Assembly (NCBI GenBank): GCA_016934035.1
Contig: JAFGTP010000009.1
Location: forward strand, 1,459 to 65,458
Reading direction: 5' to 3'
Source: Fidelibacterota bacterium
GTDB lineage: Bacteria; Fidelibacterota; UBA2242; JAFGTP01
DNA length: 64,000 bases
Part shown: one piece after another, positions 48,867 through 58,965 of the stretch
How the letters are laid out: each line of letters starts with the position of its first letter
Position numbering within the stretch: position 1 is the first letter of the stretch
Translations under genes and position numbers: made by a program
Notes under the pieces: generated by a model
Told to the model about the DNA's origin: nothing
What the model saw: the letters and a program-made list of their open reading frames with translations, nothing else
Database searches by the model: none

Positions 48867-49457
48867 TTATTCTTTCCATAATTTTTTAGCAATGACCCGA
48901 TAAGCCGGGGTATAGGACCTCCGGTAAATATCCGAATGATGAGGAGTGAAATAATTGTTTTGCTTTATTTTTTTGTAATAACCCTGCCATTCCCGGGAAT
49001 CCAGTAGGATTTTTCCGGAATGAATAAGTCTGTCGATTTCTTCCAATACCAGGATCAATCGGGAAATATCTTCCGGCTGGCAGGATTCAAATAATAATCT
49101 GCCCAGTTCATCAATACTGCCATTTTGTGCTTTGTATTTTTTCAGGTTTATTCGAATATATTTTTTATCAGGTGAAATTATTTCCACCGTTGGTATTGAA
49201 GGGTCCGCTTCAATTTGCTCCATTTCTTTCCTGAGATAGTCAGTCATTTTTTGTCGGGAACTGTGAAGGTGAAAGGGCCCCAGCACACCCTGGTATACCA
49301 ATTTGTAAATATCCTGGGGTGTTGATGCAGGATATTGTTCCAGATGCCAGTTGATGACCCTTTCCCAATTGGGTTTTGGCGTGATATGGCAATGAGTTAA
49401 AAAGGAAAGGGCCCATAGGACCAGAATCCCTTTTGTAAAAAGTTTGATAATCATCAT
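48867..49457 (-). CDS. Hypothetical lipoprotein, paralog of 48183-48797
   Basis: Possible lipobox FLTHC; QDIYKLVYQGVLGPFH and HHSDIYRRSYTPAYRV. Confidence 0.75.
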   Translation of the reverse strand: MMIIKLFTKGILVLWALSFLTHCHITPKPNWERVINWHLEQYPASTPQDIYKLVYQGVLGPFHLHSSRQKMTDYLRKEMEQIEADPSIPTVEIISPDKKYIRINLKKYKAQNGSIDELGRLLFESCQPEDISRLILVLEEIDRLIHSGKILLDSREWQGYYKKIKQNNYFTPHHSDIYRRSYTPAYRVIAKKLWKE

Positions 49458-49587
49458 TAATCCTTTGTTTTTTTAGAAAATTTTAAAAGCGAAAATAATT
49501 TTTATCATCGGAAAAAAATATAAGGATAATATTGGATGAACAGAAAATTGTTTTAAGAAATTTGTTCGATTTTTTATAGATTACTCA

Positions 49588-50388
49588 ATGTTTAATTTTG
49601 ACAGGTTTTTTATGGGAGAAAAGACAACACAAAATATTAATCCAGACGAAATGGGATTTCTGGAACACCTTGAAGAATTACGCTGGCGTATCATCAAAGC
49701 TCTGATTGCCATAGTACTGTTTTCAGTGATTGCTTTTCTATTCTCTGATTTTTTTGTGGCTGCTTTAATGTTTCCGTCAAAAAATATTGAAAATATGGTG
49801 GTCCAGGTCTTAAAGGTCCAGGAAATGCTGATGCTCAAGTTCAAAATCGCTTTTATAATGGGAATCATCGCAGCCATTCCTGTTGTCGCTTATCAGTTCT
49901 GGGCTTTTGTTGCACCGGGCCTCTATCCCAGAGAAAAAAAATGGGGGCCGGCCCTGGTGATTTTTGTGACCCTGTTTTTTCTCATCGGAGCTGCTTTTGC
50001 GTATTTTGTGTTGATCCCCTTTGCCCTGGAATTTCTGGTAGCAATCGGGGCCGATGAAATCAAACGACAGTTTTCGCTGGATTATTATTCCAAATTTATC
50101 ATTCAGTTGGTATTGGCAACGGGAATTGTCTTTCAAATGCCAATCCTTTCTTTTCTTTTGGCCAAAATGGGATTGATCACAAAAAAGTTTTTGCGAAAAT
50201 ACTGGAGATTTGCCGTCGTCATTTCATTCATCCTGGCGGCATTTATTACACCTCCTGATCCCGTCAGTATGCTCATGATGGGGTTCCCTTTGATTTTACT
50301 TTATGAAATCAGCATTTATATTGCAGGAGTTGCCCAACCTAAAGAAGAGCCAGAACCTGAATGTAAGGAAAAAACCAAAGAGACATAG
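49588..50388 (+). CDS. tatC: Twin-arginine translocase subunit TatC
   Basis: FLEHLEELRWR, WAFVAPGLYPREK, FQMP, AAFITPPD, LLYEISI. Confidence 0.96.
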   Translation: MFNFDRFFMGEKTTQNINPDEMGFLEHLEELRWRIIKALIAIVLFSVIAFLFSDFFVAALMFPSKNIENMVVQVLKVQEMLMLKFKIAFIMGIIAAIPVVAYQFWAFVAPGLYPREKKWGPALVIFVTLFFLIGAAFAYFVLIPFALEFLVAIGADEIKRQFSLDYYSKFIIQLVLATGIVFQMPILSFLLAKMGLITKKFLRKYWRFAVVISFILAAFITPPDPVSMLMMGFPLILLYEISIYIAGVAQPKEEPEPECKEKTKET

Positions 50389-50393
50389 GCAAA

Positions 50394-51341
50394 ATGCTAA
50401 GCGCTTTAACAGAAAAACTGGATAGTCTGGACTTAAATAAAGTCGATTATCTTTTCCGGGAATATTATTTTGATTTTGGATTACCTTCATCAAAATTTGT
50501 CGCCTTTTTACTTAATCAGACGGGTAAAAAATTGCGGCCGTTGCTTCTGCTCTTATCAGCCCGAATTGCGGGAGACATCAATGAAAATTCCTATAAATAT
50601 GCGACTATATTTGAAGCCTTGCACACTGCAAGCCTGATCCATGACGATATAATTGATTTGGCAGAGTTGCGCCGGGGTGAAAATTCCATGAACCAGCAAT
50701 TTGGGAATAAACTGGCTGTCCTGACGGGTGATTTTATTCTGAGCCGTAGTCTTTCAATCCTGGCACAGGAACAGAACCCTGAAATTTTACGGGTCTATGC
50801 AACAGCCTCTGAGGAACTCTGTCTGGGCGAAATTCAGGAGCAACAAATTAAGAGTTCCGGAAAAATCACTCTGGATAAATATTTTGAAGTCCTTCGCTTA
50901 AAAACCGCTTCTTTGTTTTCCGCCTGCTGTGAAGCCGGCGTTCTGTCGACTCAAGGTCCTGAAAATATTCGCCAAATTCTGCGCGCTTTCGGTGAAAATC
51001 TGGGTATTGCTTTTCAAATCAAGGATGATCTTCTGGATTTTACCGGAAATGTCGGTGAGACCGGTAAGGACACCGGTAAAGACATTGCCGGCAATATCAT
51101 CACTTATCCCATATTATCGGTGGTCAACGACCTTCCCAAACACCTTCAAAAGGAATTTTCGCACTATTCTTTTTCAGAAATGAAAAAACTGATTACAGAT
51201 TATTCCGGGTTTAAAAAAACAGAAGATGAAATTTTGAAATATTCCTCCATTTGTCTGAATATTCTCGACCGGTTGGAGTCAACGGACAAAGTTGAGGTCC
51301 TGAAAAAGATTGTTAAATTAAATATTGACAGAAAATTTTAA
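50394..51341 (+). CDS. Polyprenyl diphosphate synthase
   Basis: GKKLRP, HTASLIHDDIID, AVLTGDF, KTASLF, AFQIKDDLLD. Confidence 0.92.
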   Translation: MLSALTEKLDSLDLNKVDYLFREYYFDFGLPSSKFVAFLLNQTGKKLRPLLLLLSARIAGDINENSYKYATIFEALHTASLIHDDIIDLAELRRGENSMNQQFGNKLAVLTGDFILSRSLSILAQEQNPEILRVYATASEELCLGEIQEQQIKSSGKITLDKYFEVLRLKTASLFSACCEAGVLSTQGPENIRQILRAFGENLGIAFQIKDDLLDFTGNVGETGKDTGKDIAGNIITYPILSVVNDLPKHLQKEFSHYSFSEMKKLITDYSGFKKTEDEILKYSSICLNILDRLESTDKVEVLKKIVKLNIDRKF

Positions 51342-52370
51342 GTGGACGAAAAAAAATTAAAAATATTAATCATGCGGTTAAGCGCTTTGGGAGACATTGT
51401 CAACCTTACGGTAATTTTTTCAAAAGTACGTGAAAAATATCCAACGGCAGAGATCCACTTGGTCACAAAAAAACAATTTCGGCCCATTGTTGAGCCAAAT
51501 GATTATGAGATCAGGGTTATAGACTATGACACCGAAACCAGGTTGAAAGGCTGGCTTCAGCTTTGTCGCCGGCTTCAGCATGAAAATTATGATTGTTTTC
51601 TGGATATGCATGCAAATATGCGCAGTTGGATTTTAAAAAGACACCTCAACAATGTGAAAACCGCTCATTTTGTAAAACCTCGTATTCGGAGGTTTTTTCT
51701 GTTTTATTTAGGGCTGAATTTTTTTTCGAAATCCTTCACTCTGATCAGCGAATATCTCAAGGTCCTGAGGGTGATTGGTATTGATGAAAGTGAGGGCGAG
51801 ACAGAAATACTACTGGATGGCCAGGTCCGAAAGGAAGCTGAAAATCTTTTGTCCGGCTGTGGTGTTAATCGGAATTTTGTTGTGATTCTCCCCATTGCTG
51901 CCTGGAAAAATAAACGCTATGATTTAGAAAATTATAAAAAAGTATCCGAAATGATCATTGCTCAAAAGGACCTCCAGGTTGTCTGGCTGGGCGGCAAAGG
52001 TGATGATTATTTAATGGATATCAATTTTGATAGCAGAGATATCATAAAAATTATTGGAAAATCCTCTCTCACGATTTCTATGGCAATTTTAAATATGGCC
52101 GTAGCGGTTATTGGCAATGATACCGGACTGACCTATGCTGCCCAGGCCCTGGGAACACCATCCCTGATTATCATCGGACCCACATCCCGGGAAACCGGCG
52201 CCGGCCATATCCAAAAAGGCAGCCTGGTGCTAGAAAAAGAACTTTGGTGCCGGCCCTGCTCTCAAAAAGGCGATCGGAGATGTTATCGCCGGAAACAATA
52301 TTGCCTGGATTTTTCAGCCGCTGAAGTCTATCAAAAATTTCTAACCGTACTTTCCGGAGAAAGCAAATGA
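51342..52370 (+). CDS. Glycosyltransferase family 9 (LPS heptosyltransferase-like)
   Basis: RLSALGDIV, KNKRY, IGNDTGLTYAAQALGTP, ELWCRPC. Confidence 0.88.
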   Translation: MDEKKLKILIMRLSALGDIVNLTVIFSKVREKYPTAEIHLVTKKQFRPIVEPNDYEIRVIDYDTETRLKGWLQLCRRLQHENYDCFLDMHANMRSWILKRHLNNVKTAHFVKPRIRRFFLFYLGLNFFSKSFTLISEYLKVLRVIGIDESEGETEILLDGQVRKEAENLLSGCGVNRNFVVILPIAAWKNKRYDLENYKKVSEMIIAQKDLQVVWLGGKGDDYLMDINFDSRDIIKIIGKSSLTISMAILNMAVAVIGNDTGLTYAAQALGTPSLIIIGPTSRETGAGHIQKGSLVLEKELWCRPCSQKGDRRCYRRKQYCLDFSAAEVYQKFLTVLSGESK

Positions 52371-53641
52371 ATTTTATCTGGAATTCACTATACAATATTT
52401 TAATTGTGCATCTGGGTGTGTTTTTTTATCATGTTTTTTCAATCTTCAGTCAGAAAATGAGAAAAGGCATTGCCGGTCGCCGAAAAACCCTGGGAGAAAT
52501 AGAAAAACTCCGACGAAAATACCCGGATCAAAAACTATTTCTTTTTCATTCGGCATCCCTGGGCGAATATGAACAGGTAAAACCGGTGGTGAAAGGCATT
52601 AAGGAAAAGGCCAATGAAGTGATTGCTGTGGTCAGTTTTACGTCACCCAGTGGCTATGAAAATGCCGATCGCATTGAAGCCGTTGATCTCTATATCTATC
52701 TTCCTTTTGATACCTATTTTACCACACGAAAATTTTTACAATTATTAAGGCCAGATAAAATTATTTTTGTTACCTATGAATTGTGGCCCAATCTTCTGGC
52801 TGTGGCCAAAAAATTGGGTATTTCAACCTATCTCATATCGGCCCGTATCCGGTCAACCAGCAGAAAATGGAAGTTCTATACCAAAAACTATTTTGCTTCC
52901 CTATATCGGTCAGTCGATTTTATCTTTTCCGTTACCGATGATGACAAATACGAACTGGAAAAAATTTTGAAAGATGATAAAAAGGTGATCAAAACACTGG
53001 GTGATCCACGTTACGACCAGGTGATTCAGCGGTCAGAAAAACGAAATACAAAAAATATTCCGAGGTTTTTTGACGAAGGCTTTATCATCAGCGCAGGTAG
53101 TGTCTGGGAACAGGACCTGGCTGTCATTACCCGGCCCATGATTGAATTATTGAAAACAAATCCTCAGGTTAAATTGATTATTGCGCCCCATGAAACCGAT
53201 GATGGTCATGTCGTTCCGATTATTAATGATTTTTCATCAGCAGGCCTCCCGGTTTCCCGCTATTCGGAAATGTCTGGCCAATGTGAAACCCAGGTGCTGG
53301 TAGTAGACCGGATTGGCATTCTGGCTGAACTCTATCATCAATCCCATCTCGCTTTTGTCGGAGGCAGTTTTAAGAAAGCCATTCATAATGTCATGGAGCC
53401 GGCCATTGCCGGAATTCCTGTGATTTTCGGCCCCTTTTATCAGAATTCCAGGGAAGCTCAACTTCTGGTAAAAATGGAGGGCGGTTTCTCTCTGACTACG
53501 GGTGATGCGTTTCTGTCGAAAGTAAAAGAGTTGATGAAGAACCCTGAAAACTACCAGCGGATTGCCAGGGCTTCCAAAAATGTCATTCTCAGCAATAAGG
53601 GAGCCGGTGAAAAGATTGTTATGGAGATTTTAAAAGATTGA
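52367..53641 (+). CDS. waaA: 3-deoxy-D-manno-octulosonate (Kdo) transferase
   Basis: FHSASLGE, YLPFD, ELWPN, GDPRYD, IAPH, DRIGILAELY, FVGGSF, HNVMEPA. Confidence 0.92.
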   Translation: MNFIWNSLYNILIVHLGVFFYHVFSIFSQKMRKGIAGRRKTLGEIEKLRRKYPDQKLFLFHSASLGEYEQVKPVVKGIKEKANEVIAVVSFTSPSGYENADRIEAVDLYIYLPFDTYFTTRKFLQLLRPDKIIFVTYELWPNLLAVAKKLGISTYLISARIRSTSRKWKFYTKNYFASLYRSVDFIFSVTDDDKYELEKILKDDKKVIKTLGDPRYDQVIQRSEKRNTKNIPRFFDEGFIISAGSVWEQDLAVITRPMIELLKTNPQVKLIIAPHETDDGHVVPIINDFSSAGLPVSRYSEMSGQCETQVLVVDRIGILAELYHQSHLAFVGGSFKKAIHNVMEPAIAGIPVIFGPFYQNSREAQLLVKMEGGFSLTTGDAFLSKVKELMKNPENYQRIARASKNVILSNKGAGEKIVMEILKD

Positions 53642-54318
53642 TGAATATTTGTTTAAAAGAGGTCAGTTTTACATACCAAAATCATTTTACCTTAAATATC
53701 GATCTTGAAATACCCGCCAACAGCTGGACTATGATTGTAGGAAAAAACGGCGCCGGCAAATCAACATTGCTGAAACTGCTGGCCGGTGTGATTCAACCGG
53801 ATCAAGGCACCCTTTCTTTCGGTCCTTCACGGGTTGGCTATATTTTTCAAAATCCTGACGACCAGATCATCCAGCTGAGCCTTGCCAAAGAATTGGCTTT
53901 TGATCTGGAAAACCTTGGTCTGCCGGTGCAGCAGATTGAAAATAAAATTACAGATTTTTTAAGGGAATACGATTTTCAGGGAAGGTCGGAACAATCGCCC
54001 AATACACTCTCGGGCGGAGAAAAACAACGGCTGGCCCTCGCCTCAACGCTGATCAGCGACCCGGATATTTTGGTCTTTGATGAACCCACTGCATTTTTGG
54101 ATTACAGGCAAAAAGAAAAACTCTACCAAAAAATTGAAATGCTGAAAAAAAATAAATCCATCCTCTGGGTAACCCATGAACTGGACGAATTGTTTTTAGC
54201 CGATTCCATTATTGAAATGGAACAGGGTCAAATCTCCTTCAAAGGGAGCCGGGAACAATACTTAAAACGATTGTCTGAAATACCCTTTATCAGGAAACAT
54301 TATCTCTCATGCATCTGA
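53638..54318 (+). CDS. ECF-type ABC transporter ATPase (EcfA1-like)
   Basis: GKNGAGKST, FQNPDDQ, LSGGEKQR, VFDEPT, VTH. Confidence 0.85.
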   Translation: MMNICLKEVSFTYQNHFTLNIDLEIPANSWTMIVGKNGAGKSTLLKLLAGVIQPDQGTLSFGPSRVGYIFQNPDDQIIQLSLAKELAFDLENLGLPVQQIENKITDFLREYDFQGRSEQSPNTLSGGEKQRLALASTLISDPDILVFDEPTAFLDYRQKEKLYQKIEMLKKNKSILWVTHELDELFLADSIIEMEQGQISFKGSREQYLKRLSEIPFIRKHYLSCI

Positions 54319-55010
54319 AAATTAATCATCTTGAATATCAGTATTCGAATAATCAAAATTTTAAACTGGAAATCGAAAAGGCCGATGTTTTCCTTGATGA
54401 AAGCCTTGGGATTTACGGATTATCTGGTTCTGGCAAAACGACACTGGGTAAAATTATGGGCGGATTGCTGAAAACCACCGCAATTGATTTTTTCGGTGCT
54501 GAAGTGTTGTATTTGCCACAGGTGGCAGAAAACCTGCTTCTGGGGACTTCTGTCCGGCAGACCCTGAAAATAATATCAGAATGGAAATCCCGGACTTTTG
54601 AAGAAAATTTTGCGATGCACTTGCAAAAATTTGGCCTTCAACTTTCGAATATAGAAAATAAACATGGATTTGAACTCAGTGCCGGTGAATTGCGCATCAT
54701 CTCACTCAGCCTTGCTTTCTCGTACGAAACCGATATTCTGGTCCTTGATGAACCCAGTATCGGGCTGGATTGGTCTGCCCGGATTGAGCTGATCCGGCAA
54801 CTACAAAATTTTAAAAAGCCATTGGTGCTGATATCCCATGATTATGAAATGCTGAGAAAATTATGCGCCAGGGTCTGGATTATGGACCGGGGAAAACTAG
54901 TTTTTCAGGGAGACTTTTATCAATTGGAAAAGAATGATAAATTATGCAGTGAAACTGGAATCAATTTTTACAAGAATTTAGTTAAAAAGAGAAAATTGTT
55001 ATTAAGTTAG
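54309..55010 (+). CDS. ABC transporter ATPase (EcfA2-like, divergent)
   Basis: GLSGSGKTT, LSAGE, VLDEPSIGLD, ISHD. Confidence 0.78.
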   Translation: MHLKINHLEYQYSNNQNFKLEIEKADVFLDESLGIYGLSGSGKTTLGKIMGGLLKTTAIDFFGAEVLYLPQVAENLLLGTSVRQTLKIISEWKSRTFEENFAMHLQKFGLQLSNIENKHGFELSAGELRIISLSLAFSYETDILVLDEPSIGLDWSARIELIRQLQNFKKPLVLISHDYEMLRKLCARVWIMDRGKLVFQGDFYQLEKNDKLCSETGINFYKNLVKKRKLLLS

Positions 55011-55018
55011 GAGAATAT

Positions 55019-56512
55019 TTGAGCAAACAAATCAAAGAACCGCTAAATACCCGGGAAGCAGACAAAATTATCACTGTATCCAATCTGATTTCCTTGTTTC
55101 GTGCTTTTCTGGCCCTGCCCATTATCTATTTTTTAAAAACCGGTGATATGGAAAATGCCTTGATTGTAATAATTGTGGCTATCATCACAGACCTACTGGA
55201 CGGCTGGATTGCCCGTGTTGCAAATTCTATCACGCACCTTGGCAAGATCCTGGACCCCTTTGCTGACAAGGTCGTGATTTTTAGTGTAATGATCTATATG
55301 GTGCTGGAAGTTGAAGAATTTCCACTATGGTTTTTGGTTTTCCTGATGAGCCGGGATTTTATCATTTCAGTCCTTGGCATGACCATGTTGAATAAAAGAA
55401 AAGTATCGCCGATGGCCAACAAAATGGGGAAAGTATCCATTGTTTTTACTTCCGCAGTCATTCTTTCCTATCTTTATTCAGGTCAATATTTTTCCGTAAA
55501 TATCAACCAGCCTTTACTTTACACAACTGTTGCCTTTCAAATCATTTCCCTCATTCAATATGTTGTCACCTATGTCAATATTATTCACAAAGGTGAAGCT
55601 GCCTGCAAAAAACCGGGAAAACAAGGAACTTCCAAACTGAGTCTGGGCCTGGCCAAAACTGAAATAGGAATTGCCGCCCGGTTGCCGTTGATCCGGAAAT
55701 TTTTCAAGGTTGACGAAGATGTGCTTGGCCAGATTGAAGAAACACTGCTGACGGCAGATATGGGGGTTGACCTGACGGAAAAGTTGATTGAAAAGCTGCG
55801 CAAAGTCAACAAAACAGAGGAGACAGAACTAAAAGAAATCCTCAAAGAAGAAATGAAAAAACTGATTCATCATAGTCCGTCGGAAAAAGAGGAAACAATA
55901 AAACCCAGTGTGATCTTTTTTATTGGAATCAACGGAACCGGAAAAACAACTACCATCGGGAAGTTGGCTAATAAATTTAAAAATGAAGGAAAAAATATTC
56001 TGCTGGCTGCGGCCGATACCTTCCGGGCGGCGGCCTATGAACAATTGGAAGTCTGGGCCCAAAGAGCCGGGGTGGACTTCGCCGGTGCCAGTGACGCAAC
56101 AGACCCGGCAGCCATTGCCTTTGATGCTGTCAGACGCGCCATAGATGAAAAAAAAGATATTCTGCTGGTTGACACTGCGGGAAGGCTTCATACCAAATCC
56201 AACCTGATGGAAGAACTTAAAAAAGTGAAGCGGGTTGTTGACAAGGCCCTGCCAGGCGCACCCCATGAAATCTGGCTGGTAATTGACGCCAATATCGGGC
56301 AAAACGGAATTGTCCAGGCCCAAAAATTTATGGAAGCTGTCGGCGTGACCGGACTCATCCTGACAAAACTCGATGGCACCGCCAAAGGAGGCGCAGTTCT
56401 GGCTATTCATGACCAACTCAATATTCCGATTAAATATCTGGGGGTTGGCGAAAAACTCGATGATATTCTGGAATTTGAACCCACAGCTTTTATTGATGAA
56501 TTATTAAGTTAA
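55019..56512 (+). CDS. ftsY: CDP-alcohol phosphatidyltransferase (PgsA-like) fused to SRP receptor FtsY
   Basis: aa 1-190: DLLDGWIAR-x8-G-x3-D-x3-D motif and TM helices. aa about 205-497: FtsY NG domain (GINGTGKTTT, DTFRAAA, DTAGR, TKLDGTAKGG). Single frame; SD AGGAGA before TTG. Confidence 0.92.
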   Translation: MSKQIKEPLNTREADKIITVSNLISLFRAFLALPIIYFLKTGDMENALIVIIVAIITDLLDGWIARVANSITHLGKILDPFADKVVIFSVMIYMVLEVEEFPLWFLVFLMSRDFIISVLGMTMLNKRKVSPMANKMGKVSIVFTSAVILSYLYSGQYFSVNINQPLLYTTVAFQIISLIQYVVTYVNIIHKGEAACKKPGKQGTSKLSLGLAKTEIGIAARLPLIRKFFKVDEDVLGQIEETLLTADMGVDLTEKLIEKLRKVNKTEETELKEILKEEMKKLIHHSPSEKEETIKPSVIFFIGINGTGKTTTIGKLANKFKNEGKNILLAAADTFRAAAYEQLEVWAQRAGVDFAGASDATDPAAIAFDAVRRAIDEKKDILLVDTAGRLHTKSNLMEELKKVKRVVDKALPGAPHEIWLVIDANIGQNGIVQAQKFMEAVGVTGLILTKLDGTAKGGAVLAIHDQLNIPIKYLGVGEKLDDILEFEPTAFIDELLS

Positions 56513-56602
56513 CCACCTGGATTTAAAAATTCGGGTTAGTCGAACCGACAGCAAAGTGGAATCAGATTATAAATAGCGTTCTTTGCGGTTAAAAAGGAAT
56601 AA

Positions 56603-57889
56603 ATGAAAAAATATACCATCATATCACTGGGATGCCCCAAAAATACAGTGGATTCCGAAGTGCTGAAAGGCAGCCTGAACCGTATTGGCTTTACTTTTAC
56701 AGAGGATGTGGAGACTGCTGAAATCATTATTATCAATACCTGTGGTTTTATCAAAGATGCCAAAGAGGAATCTATTGAAACAATCCTGGAAGCAGCGGAA
56801 CTGAAAAAGGAGGACCCAAATAAAAAAGTCATTGCCTTTGGGTGTCTCACTGAAAGATATCATGATGAACTAGTGAAGGAAATGCCGGAAGTGGATGCTG
56901 TATTTGGAATTGATTCTCAGGCTGAAATCATCAGGTATCTGACCCGGGAGCGCTTTACCCTTCCTGATATTGCCACTGTTCGCGACCTGATGACACCACC
57001 CTACCAGGCTTATCTCAAAATCGCAGAAGGTTGTGATAACAAGTGCGCCTTTTGCGCCATTCCCGGCATACGCGGACCGCAGCATAGCCGAACCATCGAA
57101 GATATACTTCGAGAAGCAGAATATCTGCAACAAAAAGGCGTCAAGGAAGTCGTGCTGACAGCCCAGGATTTGACCCGCTTCGGCCGAGACAATTACGGCA
57201 CATTGAAACTCTTTGAGCTGGCAGACGAGTTGCTCCGGGGACGGTTTTTTCATTGGGTGCGCATCATGTACACCAATCCGGATTTCTGGAACCCGCAATT
57301 GCTCGAACTTTACAATAAATATCCGGAACTCTGCCGATATCTAGACATTCCCGTTCAACATGCTGCGGACCGAATTTTAAAATTGATGAACCGCGGCAGG
57401 AAATCGGCGCAGATCAGAAACATCATTACTGAAATCAGAAAGCAGGTCCCCGACATGGCGATACGCACTTCCATCATTACCGGATTCCCGACAGAAAGCG
57501 AAGATGATTTCATTGAACTTCTGGATTTTGTGGAGGAAATGAGATTTGAACGGCTGGGTGTGTTTACCTATTCCGAAGAGGAGGAGACCCAGGCGGCAGA
57601 AATGAACGATGATGTACCGGAAGAAGAAAAAGAGCGCCGCCGGGAGTTACTGATGGAGACCCAATATGACATTGCTTCAGATTTTGCCAAATCAAAAGTC
57701 GGACAAGAAATTGAGGTGATGATTGAAAAAGAAGACAAGGGCCATTACATCGGCCGGACGATGTGGGACGCGCCGGAGGTGGACTGTTTTGCGTTGGTGA
57801 AAAGCAACCGGGAACTTCAACCTGGTGAGTTTTGTAAGATAAAAGTAATAAAAAATATCAATATGGACCTATACGGAGAAAATATATAA
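56603..57889 (+). CDS. rimO: Ribosomal protein S12 methylthiotransferase
   Basis: LGCPKNTVDSE, INTCGFI, EGCDNKCAFCAIP, FTYSEEE, DAPEVD. Confidence 0.95.
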   Translation: MKKYTIISLGCPKNTVDSEVLKGSLNRIGFTFTEDVETAEIIIINTCGFIKDAKEESIETILEAAELKKEDPNKKVIAFGCLTERYHDELVKEMPEVDAVFGIDSQAEIIRYLTRERFTLPDIATVRDLMTPPYQAYLKIAEGCDNKCAFCAIPGIRGPQHSRTIEDILREAEYLQQKGVKEVVLTAQDLTRFGRDNYGTLKLFELADELLRGRFFHWVRIMYTNPDFWNPQLLELYNKYPELCRYLDIPVQHAADRILKLMNRGRKSAQIRNIITEIRKQVPDMAIRTSIITGFPTESEDDFIELLDFVEEMRFERLGVFTYSEEEETQAAEMNDDVPEEEKERRRELLMETQYDIASDFAKSKVGQEIEVMIEKEDKGHYIGRTMWDAPEVDCFALVKSNRELQPGEFCKIKVIKNINMDLYGENI

Positions 57890-57900
57890 GAGGGGAAAAC

Positions 57901-58965
57901 ATGAAAGCATTAATTACAGCCGGCGGACACGGCACACGACTCAGACCGATTACTCACACACAAAATAAACATTTGATTCCAATCGCCAACAAACCAATTC
58001 TCAACTATGCCCTGGAATATGTCAAAGAAGCCGGTATAATGGAAGTCGGTATCATCACCAATAAAGATGGTTCGGAAGTAAAAGAAGTGTATGGCGATGG
58101 CAGCGGGATGGGCCTGAAAATTACCTACATTCCCCAGGAAAGGCCCAGCGGGCTGGCAGATTGTATTCGTATTGCCCAGCCATTCCTGAACAATGAACCC
58201 TTTGTCTTTTACCTGGGTGATAATATCATCGTTGGTGGAATCAAACGGTTTATTGATGAATTCAGAAGCATGGGCTCCAATTGCCACCTGGTGCTATCCA
58301 AAGTTCCGGACCCGGAAAGATTTGGTGTTCCGGAATTAATTGGCAACCGGATTGTGTCCATCGAAGAAAAACCCAAAGTACCTAAAAGTGAATATGCTGT
58401 CACCGGTATTTACATTTATGATGAAAATATTTTTGAAGCCGTCAATGCAATTCAGCCCAGCGCCCGGGGGGAATTGGAAATCTCAGACGCCAATCAGTAT
58501 TTGCTGAATAAAAAACTGAAAGTCACCTATTCTGAAATTACCGGCTGGTGGAAAGATACCGGAAAACCTGATGATCTGTTGGAAGCGAACCGGCTGGTGT
58601 TGGACAATATCAAAGGGAATATCCTGGGAAGAGTCGACGAAGAGTCCCATATCAACGGGCGTGTTATCATCGAAGAAGGTGCGGAAATCATCAAAAGCAA
58701 TATACGCGGCCCGGTGATGATTGGGAAAAATACAAAAATTGAAAACAGCTATATCGGTCCCTATACGGCTATCTATAATAATTGTTATATAAAAAGTTCC
58801 GAAGTGGAATTTAGCATCGTCTCGTCCGGATGTGAAATTTTGGATCAGGACGTACGGATCGAAGATAGTATTCTGGGCGAAAATGTTTCCATGAAAAAGG
58901 TGGTCAGCCGTCCCAGAGTCAACCGCTTCATCATCGGAGAAGGTTCCAATATTCGCCATTGCTAA
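57901..58965 (+). CDS. Glucose-1-phosphate thymidylyltransferase (long form)
   Basis: AGGHGTRLRP, KHLIP, YLGDN, IEEKP, SARGELEISDA, WWKDTG, C-terminal beta-helix. Confidence 0.88.
   Translation: MKALITAGGHGTRLRPITHTQNKHLIPIANKPILNYALEYVKEAGIMEVGIITNKDGSEVKEVYGDGSGMGLKITYIPQERPSGLADCIRIAQPFLNNEPFVFYLGDNIIVGGIKRFIDEFRSMGSNCHLVLSKVPDPERFGVPELIGNRIVSIEEKPKVPKSEYAVTGIYIYDENIFEAVNAIQPSARGELEISDANQYLLNKKLKVTYSEITGWWKDTGKPDDLLEANRLVLDNIKGNILGRVDEESHINGRVIIEEGAEIIKSNIRGPVMIGKNTKIENSYIGPYTAIYNNCYIKSSEVEFSIVSSGCEILDQDVRIEDSILGENVSMKKVVSRPRVNRFIIGEGSNIRHC

What the first reader, a model, noticed from the sequence alone, without database searches (positions are those of the whole stretch)
55019..56512. 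Phospholipid synthase-SRP receptor fusion (PgsA-like domain plus FtsY)
An intact CDP-alcohol phosphatidyltransferase with several TM helices replaces the usual acidic A domain of FtsY, joined by a short basic linker to the amphipathic helix (SKLSLGLAKT) and a complete NG GTPase. Bacterial FtsY is normally peripheral and is stimulated by anionic lipids such as PG. The fusion would make the receptor integral and place anionic lipid synthesis at the site of co-translational membrane protein insertion. I do not know of a description of this architecture, and it is the strongest novelty candidate here.
Basis: partly seen in the sequence, partly recalled or inferred. Interest (0 to 1): 0.82.

Follow-up and report, generated by a model that had tools for sequence, protein, structure and literature searches.

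The report
Lipid-synthase paralogue fused to SRP receptor
In some uncultured marine bacteria (Marinimicrobia), the receptor that docks ribosomes making membrane proteins is made as one protein with a six-helix phospholipid enzyme; the fusion is real and arose at least twice from two neighbouring genes, but the enzyme is a remodelled extra copy, not the ordinary PgsA.

Summary
Window 55019-56512 (+) is one 497-aa ORF. It joins a CDP-alcohol phosphatidyltransferase domain (residues 19-175) to a complete short FtsY through a variable linker.

It is not an artefact. Uninterrupted fusions occur in 32 of 401 genomes of the phylum (13 genera). An exhaustive search of 1.84 billion representatives finds the architecture only in two Marinimicrobia clusters.

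- The genome has a canonical pgsA (beside pgpA) elsewhere, so the fused domain is a third, divergent paralogue.
- In most families sampled, this paralogue lies directly upstream of ftsY, with the ftsY start 0-9 codons after, or slightly overlapping, the paralogue's stop codon. The fusion is the loss of that stop.
- AU tests on both halves reject a single origin.
- All catalytic and CDP-DAG-contact residues are invariant. Three contacts for the glycerol-3-phosphate head group (SaPgsA R118, K137, T138) are replaced in 53-54 of 54 linked paralogues and kept in 17/17 canonical PgsAs. The acceptor is therefore probably not G3P, and "local PG synthesis" is unproven.

No paper describing the fusion was found; three earlier notes of this scan reached similar conclusions.

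Side finding: nine genera of the phylum appear to have lost Ffh, and the sampled genomes among them also lack FtsY and SRP RNA yet keep the paralogue.

The parts
55019..56512 (+). Whole fusion gene (497 aa): PgsA-like CDP-alcohol phosphatidyltransferase paralogue, linker, short FtsY
   Evidence: identical 497-aa protein P0001 in the protein collection
55009..55013 (+). Shine-Dalgarno-like AGGAG, 5 nt before the TTG start, overlapping the stop codon (55008-55010) of the upstream ABC-ATPase gene
   Evidence: Sequence; ORF ends
55073..55543 (+). CDP-OH_P_transf domain (residues 19-175); with the sixth helix the membrane module runs to about residue 190
   Evidence: Pfam PF01066, E 5e-30; closest solved structure S. 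aureus PgsA 7DRJ; helices H20-41, 44-68, 73-97, 103-127, 135-152, 163-190 in the AF2 model
55190..55267 (+). Catalytic signature D58-x2-D61-G62-x2-A65-R66-x8-G75-x3-D79-x3-D83
   Evidence: Invariant in 39 fused proteins and in all 71 canonical, split and fused sequences
55376..55441 (+). Remodelled acceptor-pocket positions: G120 (SaPgsA R118), S140 (SaPgsA K137), I141 (SaPgsA T138). K138 (SaPgsA K135, a CDP-DAG contact) is kept
   Evidence: Residue roles from PMC8640168; column counts by group
55589..55633 (+). Variable basic linker (about residues 191-205, HKGEAACKKPGKQGTS). It corresponds to the stop codon and short spacer of split relatives and holds no in-frame ATG, GTG or TTG
   Evidence: Alignment A1; AF2 pLDDT below 50 at 193-203; junctions; start-codon scan
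55634..55681 (+). Conserved FtsY N-terminal motif KLSLGLAKTEIGIAAR, equivalent to the lipid-binding amphiphilic helix at the start of the N domain of E. coli FtsY
   Evidence: L207, L211, T214 invariant and G210, K213 nearly invariant; standalone FtsYs of relatives start just before this motif; role of the helix from PMC2928010
55697..55855 (+). SRP54_N helical-bundle domain (residues 227-279)
   Evidence: Pfam PF02881, E 7e-10
55904..56506 (+). SRP54-type GTPase (G) domain, residues 296-496, with G1 GINGTGKTT (303-311), DTAGR (385-389) and TKLD (449-452)
   Evidence: Pfam PF00448, E 5.5e-77; TIGR00064 337.8 bits; invariant motif residues; Foldseek match to FtsY structures
53638..55010 (+). 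Two ABC-transporter ATPase genes (226 and 233 aa) immediately upstream, overlapping or abutting. An ABC-ATPase gene precedes the paralogue in every family sampled for it
   Evidence: same context in L009-L019 and in G063, G206, G146, G055 and G134
56603..57889 (+). RimO/MiaB-family radical-SAM methylthiotransferase downstream; it also follows ftsY in G063

Best explanation
The gene encodes an integral-membrane SRP receptor. It arose when the stop codon was lost between two translationally coupled neighbouring genes that are adjacent in most families of the phylum Marinimicrobia (Fidelibacterota). The upstream gene is an old, divergent paralogue of PgsA and the downstream gene is a short ftsY.

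Shown:
- The N-terminal module is a six-helix CDP-alcohol phosphatidyltransferase.
- Its metal/catalytic motif and its CDP-diacylglycerol contacts are under strict purifying selection.
- Its last helix ends at the cytoplasmic face, so the FtsY NG domain is cytoplasmic.
- The FtsY part keeps its lipid-binding N-terminal motif and all GTPase motifs, and it is the only FtsY in the genome. Ffh and SRP RNA are also present.

Inferred:
- The protein works as the cell's SRP receptor while permanently tethered, through a flexible 15-60-residue linker, to an active lipid synthase.
- The synthase still uses CDP-DAG, but its acceptor pocket has lost two basic residues and one hydroxyl residue that hold the phosphate and 2'-OH of glycerol-3-phosphate.
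- It therefore most likely transfers the phosphatidyl group to a less anionic acceptor. Phosphatidylglycerol, giving cardiolipin, is one candidate, because no PLD-type cardiolipin synthase is recognisable in the phylum.
- Conserved adjacency, translational coupling and repeated fusion argue that the two proteins act together at the same membrane sites. Whether the lipid product activates FtsY or the translocon locally is untested.
For: Reality and anatomy.

Sole FtsY, with Ffh and SRP RNA present.

Third paralogue beside canonical pgsA-pgpA and psd-pssA.

Adjacency across the phylum: in 30 sampled genomes nearly all have a canonical PgsA plus a second copy directly upstream of ftsY. Of the 54 loci examined are fused, 36 are split but adjacent and 2 are unlinked. 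The ftsY ATG lies 0-9 in-frame codons after the stop, or -8 to +13 nt from it.

One clade of linked paralogues (SH-aLRT 94) is separate from canonical PgsA (87).

At least two fusion events: g37 nests among split f8 (98*/99*), and the window's order has split relatives (98*) in both the lipid-half and NG-half trees. AU tests reject a single fused clade (NG p = 8e-55; lipid half p = 4.8e-5).

Restricted distribution: only two full-length representatives among 1.84e9. Long proteins carrying this N-domain are all FtsY fusions. All named members of the paralogue family come from this phylum.

Catalytic competence and the changed pocket (with residue roles from PMC8640168):
- The 8 motif residues plus R65, K135, R110 and Y181 equivalents are invariant in all groups.
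- R118 becomes A/G/S in 52 of 54 linked paralogues (plus one V and one K).
- K137 becomes S/A/F/T/M/G (0 of 54 are Lys).
- T138 becomes I/V and others (0 of 54 are Thr).
- All three are kept in 17 of 17 canonical PgsAs.

Topology: SaPgsA Y181, at the end of TM6, is near the intracellular surface.

[quoted passage not shown] 1997).

Anionic lipids, cardiolipin most strongly, activate FtsY through the N-terminal helix (PMC2928010).

No PLD-type Cls above the cut-off in 81 genomes.
Against: No expression, protein or lipid data exist, and read-level support could not be obtained.

AlphaFold2 predicts no fixed contact between the two modules (pTM 0.54, disordered linker), so a physical functional interface is not supported.

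The paralogue is retained in nine sampled genomes that lack detectable FtsY, so its enzymatic role does not depend on FtsY.

The fused state is a minority (32 of 401 genomes), and fused and split genera are interleaved, so the fusion may be nearly neutral.

The inference about the acceptor rests on homology to one structure (SaPgsA). K83, R110 and Y181 are kept in the fused proteins, so G3P use is not excluded.

The domain scores lower on the CDP-type cardiolipin synthase model (NF053678, 73.9 bits against a cut-off of 240) than on the pgsA model.
Confidence: 0.7

Rival explanations
1. Neutral or anchor-only fusion. The two genes are neighbours for reasons of co-expression only. Loss of one stop codon is tolerated because the C-terminus of the lipid enzyme is cytoplasmic and a tethered FtsY still works. 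The lipid product has nothing to do with protein targeting.
For: Fused and split states interconvert by a single substitution and are interleaved within the order. AF2 predicts no inter-domain interface. The paralogue persists where FtsY is lost. Engineered anchoring of NG to an unrelated membrane polypeptide is functional.
Against: The gene order paralogue then ftsY, with coupling distances of 0-27 nt, is kept in most families of a whole phylum, while other neighbours change. The fusion was fixed at least twice and then kept through 40-87% sequence divergence. Such 'Rosetta-stone' fusions usually mark functional partners (general knowledge).
Confidence: 0.25
2. The domain is a working PGP synthase (a PgsA isozyme), and the fusion places synthesis of anionic PG at the site of co-translational insertion.
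For: The best family match is pgsA (94 bits) and the nearest structure is SaPgsA. The catalytic motif, CDP-DAG contacts and K83, R110 and Y181 equivalents are kept in the fused proteins. FtsY is activated by PG and cardiolipin.
Against: It scores below the TIGR00560 cut-off. A canonical pgsA-pgpA pair exists elsewhere in the genome. The R118, K137 and T138 equivalents, whose mutation changes SaPgsA activity, are replaced in 53-54 of 54 linked paralogues but in none of 17 canonical PgsAs of the same phylum. In half of the split relatives K83 is lost as well.
Confidence: 0.18
3. The ORF is translated or processed into two proteins, by internal initiation or proteolysis in the linker, so FtsY acts alone as in the split relatives.
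For: The linker is disordered and basic. The ancestral state had an independent ftsY start at this place.
Against: The window's gene has no in-frame ATG, GTG or TTG between helix 6 and the FtsY motif. No own-order fused gene has an in-frame ATG there, and only sporadic GTG/TTG codons occur, one of them with an SD-like sequence. The ancestral start codon was therefore not kept.
Confidence: 0.08
4. Assembly or gene-calling artefact: a sequencing error removed a stop codon or frameshift in this MAG.
For: The genome is a draft MAG (69 contigs, 88.6% complete). Reads could not be checked.
Against: The same open frame occurs in 32 genomes of 13 genera and in about 50 protein clusters from NCBI, JGI, ENA and Logan assemblies at 40-87% identity.
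Confidence: 0.01

Closest known systems
Short bacterial FtsY (NG plus an N-terminal amphiphilic helix), e.g. Thermotoga maritima TM0570 (PDB 1VMA) and the E. coli FtsY 'NG+1' construct (2QY9)
   Same: Residues about 206-497 are a complete FtsY: TIGR00064 is above the cut-off, the TM-score to 1VMA is 0.91 with 52% identity, all GTPase motifs are present and the N-terminal lipid-binding motif is conserved.
   Different: These proteins are peripheral and bind the membrane reversibly. Here the receptor is covalently joined to a six-helix integral membrane enzyme.
[quoted passage not shown]
   Same: The SRP receptor is permanently anchored in the membrane. The experimental precedent shows that tethering is compatible with function.
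   Different: In those cases the anchor is a passive helix or an arbitrary polypeptide. Here it is a conserved enzyme with an intact active site that is also FtsY's operon partner across most of a phylum.
Eukaryotic SRP receptor SR-alpha/SR-beta
   Same: The FtsY homologue (SR-alpha) is held permanently at the membrane by an integral membrane partner (PMC2780400). The split paralogue/FtsY pair, if the two proteins bind each other, would be a two-subunit analogue.
   Different: SR-beta is a GTPase with one transmembrane helix and is not a lipid enzyme. The two are not homologous, and the association there is non-covalent.
PgsA, CDP-diacylglycerol:glycerol-3-phosphate 3-phosphatidyltransferase (S. 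aureus, PDB 7DRJ/7DRK)
   Same: Same fold class (six TM helices), the same D-x2-DG-x2-AR...G-x3-D-x3-D signature, the same CDP-DAG contacts (N5, R65 and K135 equivalents), and it is the nearest solved structure.
   Different: It falls below the equivalog cut-off. The R118, K137 and T138 equivalents of the G3P head-group site are replaced. It is a separate clade from the phylum's own canonical PgsA and is not next to pgpA.
CDP-DAG-dependent ('eukaryote-type') cardiolipin synthase (NCBIfam NF053678 ClsA)
   Same: It would use CDP-DAG with an acceptor that lacks a terminal phosphate. This fits the less basic pocket and the absence of a recognisable PLD-type Cls in the phylum.
   Different: It scores only 73.9 bits against a cut-off of 240, which is lower than the canonical PgsA of the same genome scores on that model (82.6 bits). 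If it does make cardiolipin, it evolved that activity independently. No solved structure was available for comparison.

Membership tests
FtsY (SRP receptor; TIGR00064) | NG domain scoring above the curated equivalog cut-off | tested here: met
   337.8 bits against a cut-off of 260.7, residues 230-496; Pfam SRP54_N plus SRP54
FtsY (SRP receptor; TIGR00064) | Intact SRP-type GTPase motifs (G1 GxxGxGKTT, DTAGR, TKxD) | tested here: met
   G303, N305, G306, G308, K309, T310, T311; D385-R389; K450, L451, D452 are invariant in 39 homologues
FtsY (SRP receptor; TIGR00064) | FtsY-type fold of the NG domain | tested here: met
   The top 43 Foldseek hits are all FtsY structures; 1VMA has TM-score 0.91 on the target and rmsd 2.2 A
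FtsY (SRP receptor; TIGR00064) | Acts as the cell's receptor: it is the sole FtsY, and its partners Ffh and SRP RNA are present | tested here: met
   The own genome has one FtsY, one Ffh and one FlhF, and an SRP RNA at C5:44912-44998
FtsY (SRP receptor; TIGR00064) | GTP-dependent docking of SRP-ribosome complexes | not testable with these tools
   Needs biochemistry or complementation
CDP-alcohol phosphatidyltransferase superfamily (PF01066) | D-x2-DG-x2-AR-x8-G-x3-D-x3-D signature on helices 2-3 of a multi-helix membrane domain | tested here: met
   PF01066 at 105 bits; the signature is invariant; the model has six helices
PgsA (PGP synthase; TIGR00560) | Score above the curated equivalog cut-off | tested here: not met
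   91-94 bits against a cut-off of 109.1; the genome's other copy scores 122.9
PgsA (PGP synthase; TIGR00560) | Residues that bind the glycerol-3-phosphate head group (SaPgsA K83, R110, R118, K137, T138, Y181) | tested here: not met
   K84, R112 and Y181 are kept. R118 is G120, K137 is S140 and T138 is I141. The same pattern holds in 53-54 of 54 linked paralogues, while 17 of 17 canonical PgsAs keep all six
PgsA (PGP synthase; TIGR00560) | Groups with bona fide PgsA of the same organisms in a tree | tested here: not met
   Separate clades: linked paralogues at SH-aLRT 94 and canonical PgsA at 87, with long connecting branches
CDP-DAG-dependent cardiolipin synthase (NF053678) | Score above the curated cut-off | tested here: not met
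   73.9 bits against a cut-off of 240
CDP-DAG-dependent cardiolipin synthase (NF053678) | Makes cardiolipin from CDP-DAG and PG | not testable with these tools
   Only indirect support: a less basic acceptor pocket and no PLD-type Cls above the cut-off in 81 genomes

The most novel reading that the evidence does not exclude
The ftsY-linked paralogue and FtsY form a functional module, a bacterial counterpart of SR-alpha/SR-beta. In this module the membrane partner is an active CDP-DAG transferase that makes cardiolipin or another non-PGP lipid at the foot of the SRP receptor. That would create the local lipid environment that switches on FtsY (and SecYEG/YidC). The module is covalent in two lineages and non-covalent in most of the rest of the phylum. 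The lipid enzyme is kept even where the whole SRP pathway has been lost.
Probability: 0.2. Interest if true: 0.85.

Novelty: new variant of a known kind. Interest (0 to 1): 0.62.

Why it matters
Bacterial FtsY is the textbook peripheral receptor. It cycles on and off the membrane and is switched on by anionic lipids, and how those minor lipids reach it in vivo is an open question raised explicitly in PMC2928010.

Here nature has made the receptor integral at least twice, by welding it to a lipid synthase that is its conserved operon partner in most of a globally abundant marine phylum. This provides:
1. A natural test of whether FtsY needs a soluble phase.
2. A concrete candidate for spatial coupling between phospholipid synthesis and co-translational insertion.
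3. An uncharacterised clade of CDP-alcohol transferases with a remodelled acceptor site, whose product is unknown.

The same phylum also appears to contain lineages that have lost SRP altogether, which makes it an unusually good system for asking how dispensable and how plastic the SRP pathway is.

Tried and rejected
Conservation in independent assemblies was used instead.
2. Fusions outside the phylum: an exhaustive phmmer search, an N-domain-restricted search among long proteins and a paralogue-profile search found none. A distant fusion whose total score falls below 269 bits could have been missed.
3. Hypothesis that the domain is the housekeeping PgsA: rejected.
4. Hypothesis that a PLD-type cardiolipin synthase makes a CDP-type one unnecessary: the two PLD-family proteins of this genome score 72.6 and below 10 bits on TIGR04265 against a cut-off of 290, and none of 81 genomes reaches the cut-off. 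The cardiolipin idea stays open but unproven.
5. Comparing the pocket with a solved CDP-type cardiolipin synthase: none is in the PDB copy.
6. Inter-domain packing: AF2 gives pTM 0.54 and a disordered linker, so no interface can be claimed.
7. Internal start codon for a free FtsY: no conserved one.
8. Promoter and terminator scans of 49000-58200: counts do not differ from shuffles, so they are uninformative.
9. Masking as an explanation for the 'missing' SRP genes: the loci L042, L043, L084-L087 and L089-L094 contain no N runs. Only L095 has a 100-N scaffold gap.
10. Polar lipid data for the cultured Fidelibacter multiformis: only fatty acids are reported.
Full report
**1. The observation**

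Window 55019-56512 (+) is one uninterrupted ORF of 497 aa with a TTG start. An AGGAG lies 5 nt upstream and overlaps the stop codon of the preceding ABC-ATPase gene (sequence).

Pfam finds three domains:
- CDP-OH_P_transf at residues 19-175 (E 5e-30)
- SRP54_N at 227-279
- the SRP54 GTPase at 296-496 (E 5.5e-77)

NCBIfam places residues 230-496 in TIGR00064 (ftsY) at 337.8 bits, above the 260.7 cut-off. An AlphaFold2 model built on 39 homologues has mean pLDDT 79.4. It shows six long helices between residues 20 and 190, a low-confidence linker at 193-203 and a well-folded alpha/beta domain. Foldseek matches that domain to FtsY structures, the best being T. maritima 1VMA (TM-score 0.91 on the target, 52% identity).

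**2. It is not an artefact, and it is confined to one phylum**

The protein collection holds about 50 clusters with the same architecture. They are 460-534 aa long, 40-87% identical, and come from NCBI, JGI, ENA and Logan assemblies. Those that carry names are called Marinimicrobia or Neomarinimicrobiota.

In 401 genomes of the phylum, 32 genomes of 13 genera carry an uninterrupted fusion. These are the window's own family f1, families f3 and f4 of the same order, and, separately, genus g37 of family f8.

An exhaustive phmmer search of 1.84 billion cluster representatives returned only two full-length representatives, one for each of these two groups. Every other protein in the top 150 matches the NG part only. 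A search restricted to the N-domain, but limited to long proteins, again found only FtsY fusions.

No paper in the searchable library holds both FtsY and the transferase family in any relevant sense. Three earlier notes of this scan describe the same fusion in other genomes with similar conclusions. I re-derived the shared claims independently.

**3. What the lipid domain is**

The window's genome has three CDP-alcohol transferase genes:
- One is a canonical pgsA. It scores 122.9 bits on TIGR00560 (cut-off 109.1) and lies in a recR-pgsA-pgpA cluster.
- One is pssA, next to psd.
- The third is the FtsY-fused domain, which scores only 94 bits on the pgsA model. It is 37% identical to the genome's own PgsA over 117 residues.

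In 30 sampled genomes of the phylum nearly all have both a canonical PgsA and a second, lower-scoring copy. In a maximum-likelihood tree of 72 domains the second copies, fused and unfused together, form one clade (SH-aLRT 94). That clade is separate from the canonical PgsAs (87). NCBI names the standalone members only 'CDP-alcohol phosphatidyltransferase family protein', and all named members come from this phylum.

**4. Origin of the fusion**

In the unfused genomes the second copy lies directly upstream of ftsY. Among the 54 loci examined:
- 16 are fused.
- 36 are split but adjacent.
- 2 are unlinked.

In the split loci the ftsY ATG follows the stop codon by 0-9 in-frame codons (for example TAA-ATG), or lies -8 to +13 nt from it in another frame. 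This is the classic arrangement of translational coupling. In 19 split loci the two frames are separated by exactly one in-frame stop codon, so a single substitution creates the fusion. The linker of the fused proteins (15-60 residues, variable, basic) occupies the place of that stop and spacer.

Both the lipid-half tree and the NG-half tree place the g37 fusions among split relatives of family f8 (98* and 99*). Both place the window's fusions with split relatives of its own order (98*). AU tests reject a single clade of fused genes (NG half: delta-lnL 158, p = 8e-55; lipid half: delta-lnL 99.6, p = 4.8e-5). The fusion therefore arose at least twice.

The unfused FtsYs are short NG-type proteins of 294-330 aa. 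Nothing was 'replaced'; a membrane enzyme was added.

**5. Is the enzyme alive, and what does it make?**

All eight residues of the catalytic signature are invariant in 17 canonical, 38 split-linked and 16 fused sequences. So are the equivalents of SaPgsA R65 and K135 (CDP-DAG contacts), R110 and Y181. This rules out a dead domain kept only as an anchor.

The S. aureus PgsA structure paper identifies K83, R110, R118, K137 and Y181 as contacts of the 3'-phosphate of the G3P head group, and T138 as a contact of its 2'-OH. Mutating these residues alters activity (PMC8640168). The counts at three of these positions are:

| SaPgsA residue | 17 canonical PgsAs of the phylum | 54 ftsY-linked paralogues |
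|---|---|---|
| R118 | R in 17 | A/G/S in 52, V in 1, K in 1 |
| K137 | K in 17 | S/A/F/T/M/G; never K |
| T138 | T in 17 | I/V and others; never T |

K83 is kept in all 16 fused proteins but in only 19 of 38 split ones. In the window's protein the six pocket positions read K84, R112, G120, S140, I141 and Y181.

I infer that the donor is still CDP-diacylglycerol but that the acceptor is probably not glycerol-3-phosphate. The pocket is smaller in charge and more hydrophobic.

Cardiolipin synthesis from CDP-DAG and PG is one candidate:
- For: no PLD-type cardiolipin synthase reaches its cut-off in the window's genome or in 81 high-quality genomes of the phylum (best 78.9 bits against 290).
- Against: the domain does not resemble the known CDP-type synthase model any better than canonical PgsA does.
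- Untestable here: no solved structure of that enzyme class is available for comparison.

The product remains unknown.

**6. How the fusion protein most likely works**

SaPgsA Y181 lies at the end of helix 6, near the intracellular surface. The equivalent Y181 here is about 25 residues before the FtsY motif, so the NG domain is cytoplasmic.

The FtsY part keeps the motif KL-x2-GL-x-KT at its start (L207, L211 and T214 invariant). This corresponds to the amphiphilic lipid-binding helix through which PG, and even more strongly cardiolipin, activates E. coli FtsY 50-100-fold (PMC2928010).

FtsY permanently tethered by a transmembrane domain is functional in E. coli (PMC2780400, citing Zelazny et al. 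1997). The window's genome has no other FtsY, and it has Ffh and SRP RNA. The fused protein must therefore be the working receptor.

There is no in-frame ATG, GTG or TTG between helix 6 and the FtsY motif in the window's gene, and no conserved one in its relatives. Internal initiation of a complete free FtsY is therefore unlikely.

AlphaFold2 gives no confident inter-domain packing (pTM 0.54). The evidence for functional coupling is evolutionary only: adjacency kept in most families, translational coupling and two independent fusions.

**7. Evidence that limits the coupling hypothesis, and a side finding**

Several lineages of the phylum gave no FtsY match at all. Ten genomes from these lineages were sampled across, nine of them in all three searches. 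They belong to families f12 and f25, genera g43 and g59 of f19, and genus g80 of f20, and several are closed and 95-99% complete. Follow-up in them showed:
- TIGR00064 finds no FtsY above the cut-off in any of the ten.
- PF00448 finds no SRP54-type GTPase, or only a FlhF-like protein.
- RF00169 finds no SRP RNA.
- The controls G000, G063 and G185 have all components.

Among 200 genomes at least 90% complete, 31 lack Ffh, and these account for 9 of 92 genera.

This is not masking, because the loci contain no N runs. Synteny supports clean deletions:
- G063 has ABC-ATPase, paralogue, ftsY, rimO. G206, of the same family, has ABC-ATPase, paralogue, rimO.
- G063 has tRNA, SRP RNA (RF01854), dnaX-ybaB-recR-pgsA. 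G134 has the same genes with only 143 nt between the tRNA and dnaX, and no detectable SRP RNA.

All nine genomes searched keep the paralogue (163-228 bits on its profile, against 72-92 bits for their canonical PgsA). The enzyme therefore has a role of its own. This weakens the idea that it exists to serve FtsY but does not exclude a local effect where both are present.

**8. Verdict**

The architecture is a new variant of a known kind: a membrane-anchored SRP receptor and a Rosetta-stone fusion of operon partners. It is undescribed in the literature I could search and is restricted to two Marinimicrobia lineages.

- The domain is a paralogue with a remodelled acceptor pocket, distinct from PgsA.
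- The paralogue-ftsY gene pair is kept in most families of the phylum.
- Formal tests reject a single origin of the fusion.
- The SRP pathway itself appears to have been lost in other lineages of the phylum.

The cultured Fidelibacter multiformis IA91 (2.79 Mbp, 45.6% G+C; PMC11652737) is probably genome G029 (2,788,509 bp; sampled pieces 44.6% G+C). G029 has the split, adjacent arrangement (L026). The pair could therefore be studied in a living organism.

Noticed in passing
Other genomes of the phylum: G024, G071, G079 (f12), G055, G146 (f19), G206 (f20 g80), G134, G392, G179 (f25); loci L084, L089-L095: The SRP pathway appears to be lost. No FtsY (TIGR00064), no Ffh or other SRP54-type GTPase except a FlhF-like protein (PF00448), and no SRP RNA (RF00169) were detected, although several genomes are closed and 95-99% complete. 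In a census of 200 genomes at least 90% complete, 31 lack Ffh (9 of 92 genera). Synteny shows clean deletions: G206 has ABC-paralogue-rimO where G063 has ABC-paralogue-ftsY-rimO, and G134 has 143 nt where G063 has the SRP RNA between a tRNA and dnaX. There are no N runs. Natural loss of SRP in apparently free-living bacteria would be remarkable and needs independent verification.
   Followed up: partly
Split loci L020-L024, L033-L038, L068, L072, L075-L077, L079-L081: In 19 of 36 split loci the paralogue and ftsY are in the same reading frame, separated by exactly one stop codon (TAA, TAG or TGA); four more are in frame with 2-3 stops. This exceeds the one-third expected by chance, though the loci are not phylogenetically independent. 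It suggests repeated toggling between fused and split states. Low-level stop-codon readthrough producing some fused protein was not examined.
   Followed up: partly
81 genomes of the phylum; own genome G000:C41:4233-4658 and C12 (L060, L061): No PLD-type cardiolipin synthase (TIGR04265) reaches its cut-off anywhere in the phylum sample (best 78.9 bits against 290; 47 of 81 genomes have no hit). Many genomes carry a two-HKD PLD-family protein of about 400-430 aa of unknown role.
   Followed up: partly
G000:C5 (L005), G063:C1:136000-146000 (L087), G185, G134 (L084): A conserved cluster tRNA - SRP RNA - dnaX - ybaB - recR - pgsA - pgpA places the canonical pgsA about 2.5-3 kb from the SRP RNA gene. 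In G063 the SRP RNA is the large (Alu-containing) type, RF01854, 265 nt, 141 bits.
   Followed up: partly
window 49588-58965: The fusion gene sits in a tightly packed same-strand run of envelope and translocation genes: tatC, a polyprenyl synthase, a GT9 heptosyltransferase, the Kdo transferase (waaA), two ABC ATPases, the fusion, a RimO/MiaB-type methylthiotransferase and a sugar nucleotidyltransferase. From waaA through the fusion gene, the genes overlap or are separated by at most 10 nt.
   Followed up: partly
protein P0123: A 317-aa protein from a Logan assembly combines PgpA (PF04608) with a CDP-OH_P_transf domain. This is a fusion of consecutive steps of PG synthesis and is unrelated to the FtsY fusion.
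   Followed up: no
G157 (f3 g14): C359:3213-4583 and C98:4429-5259: One genome bin holds both a fused copy (query 4-465) and a separate NG-only FtsY (281 aa). The bin is 70% complete with 5% contamination, so it is probably a mixture of two strains or species.
   Followed up: no
protein P0088 (alignment A1, columns about 150-240): In this 504-aa fused homologue the last two helices of the lipid domain are replaced by unrelated, arginine-rich sequence. This looks like a local frameshift, either an assembly error or decay of the enzyme half in that lineage.
   Followed up: no
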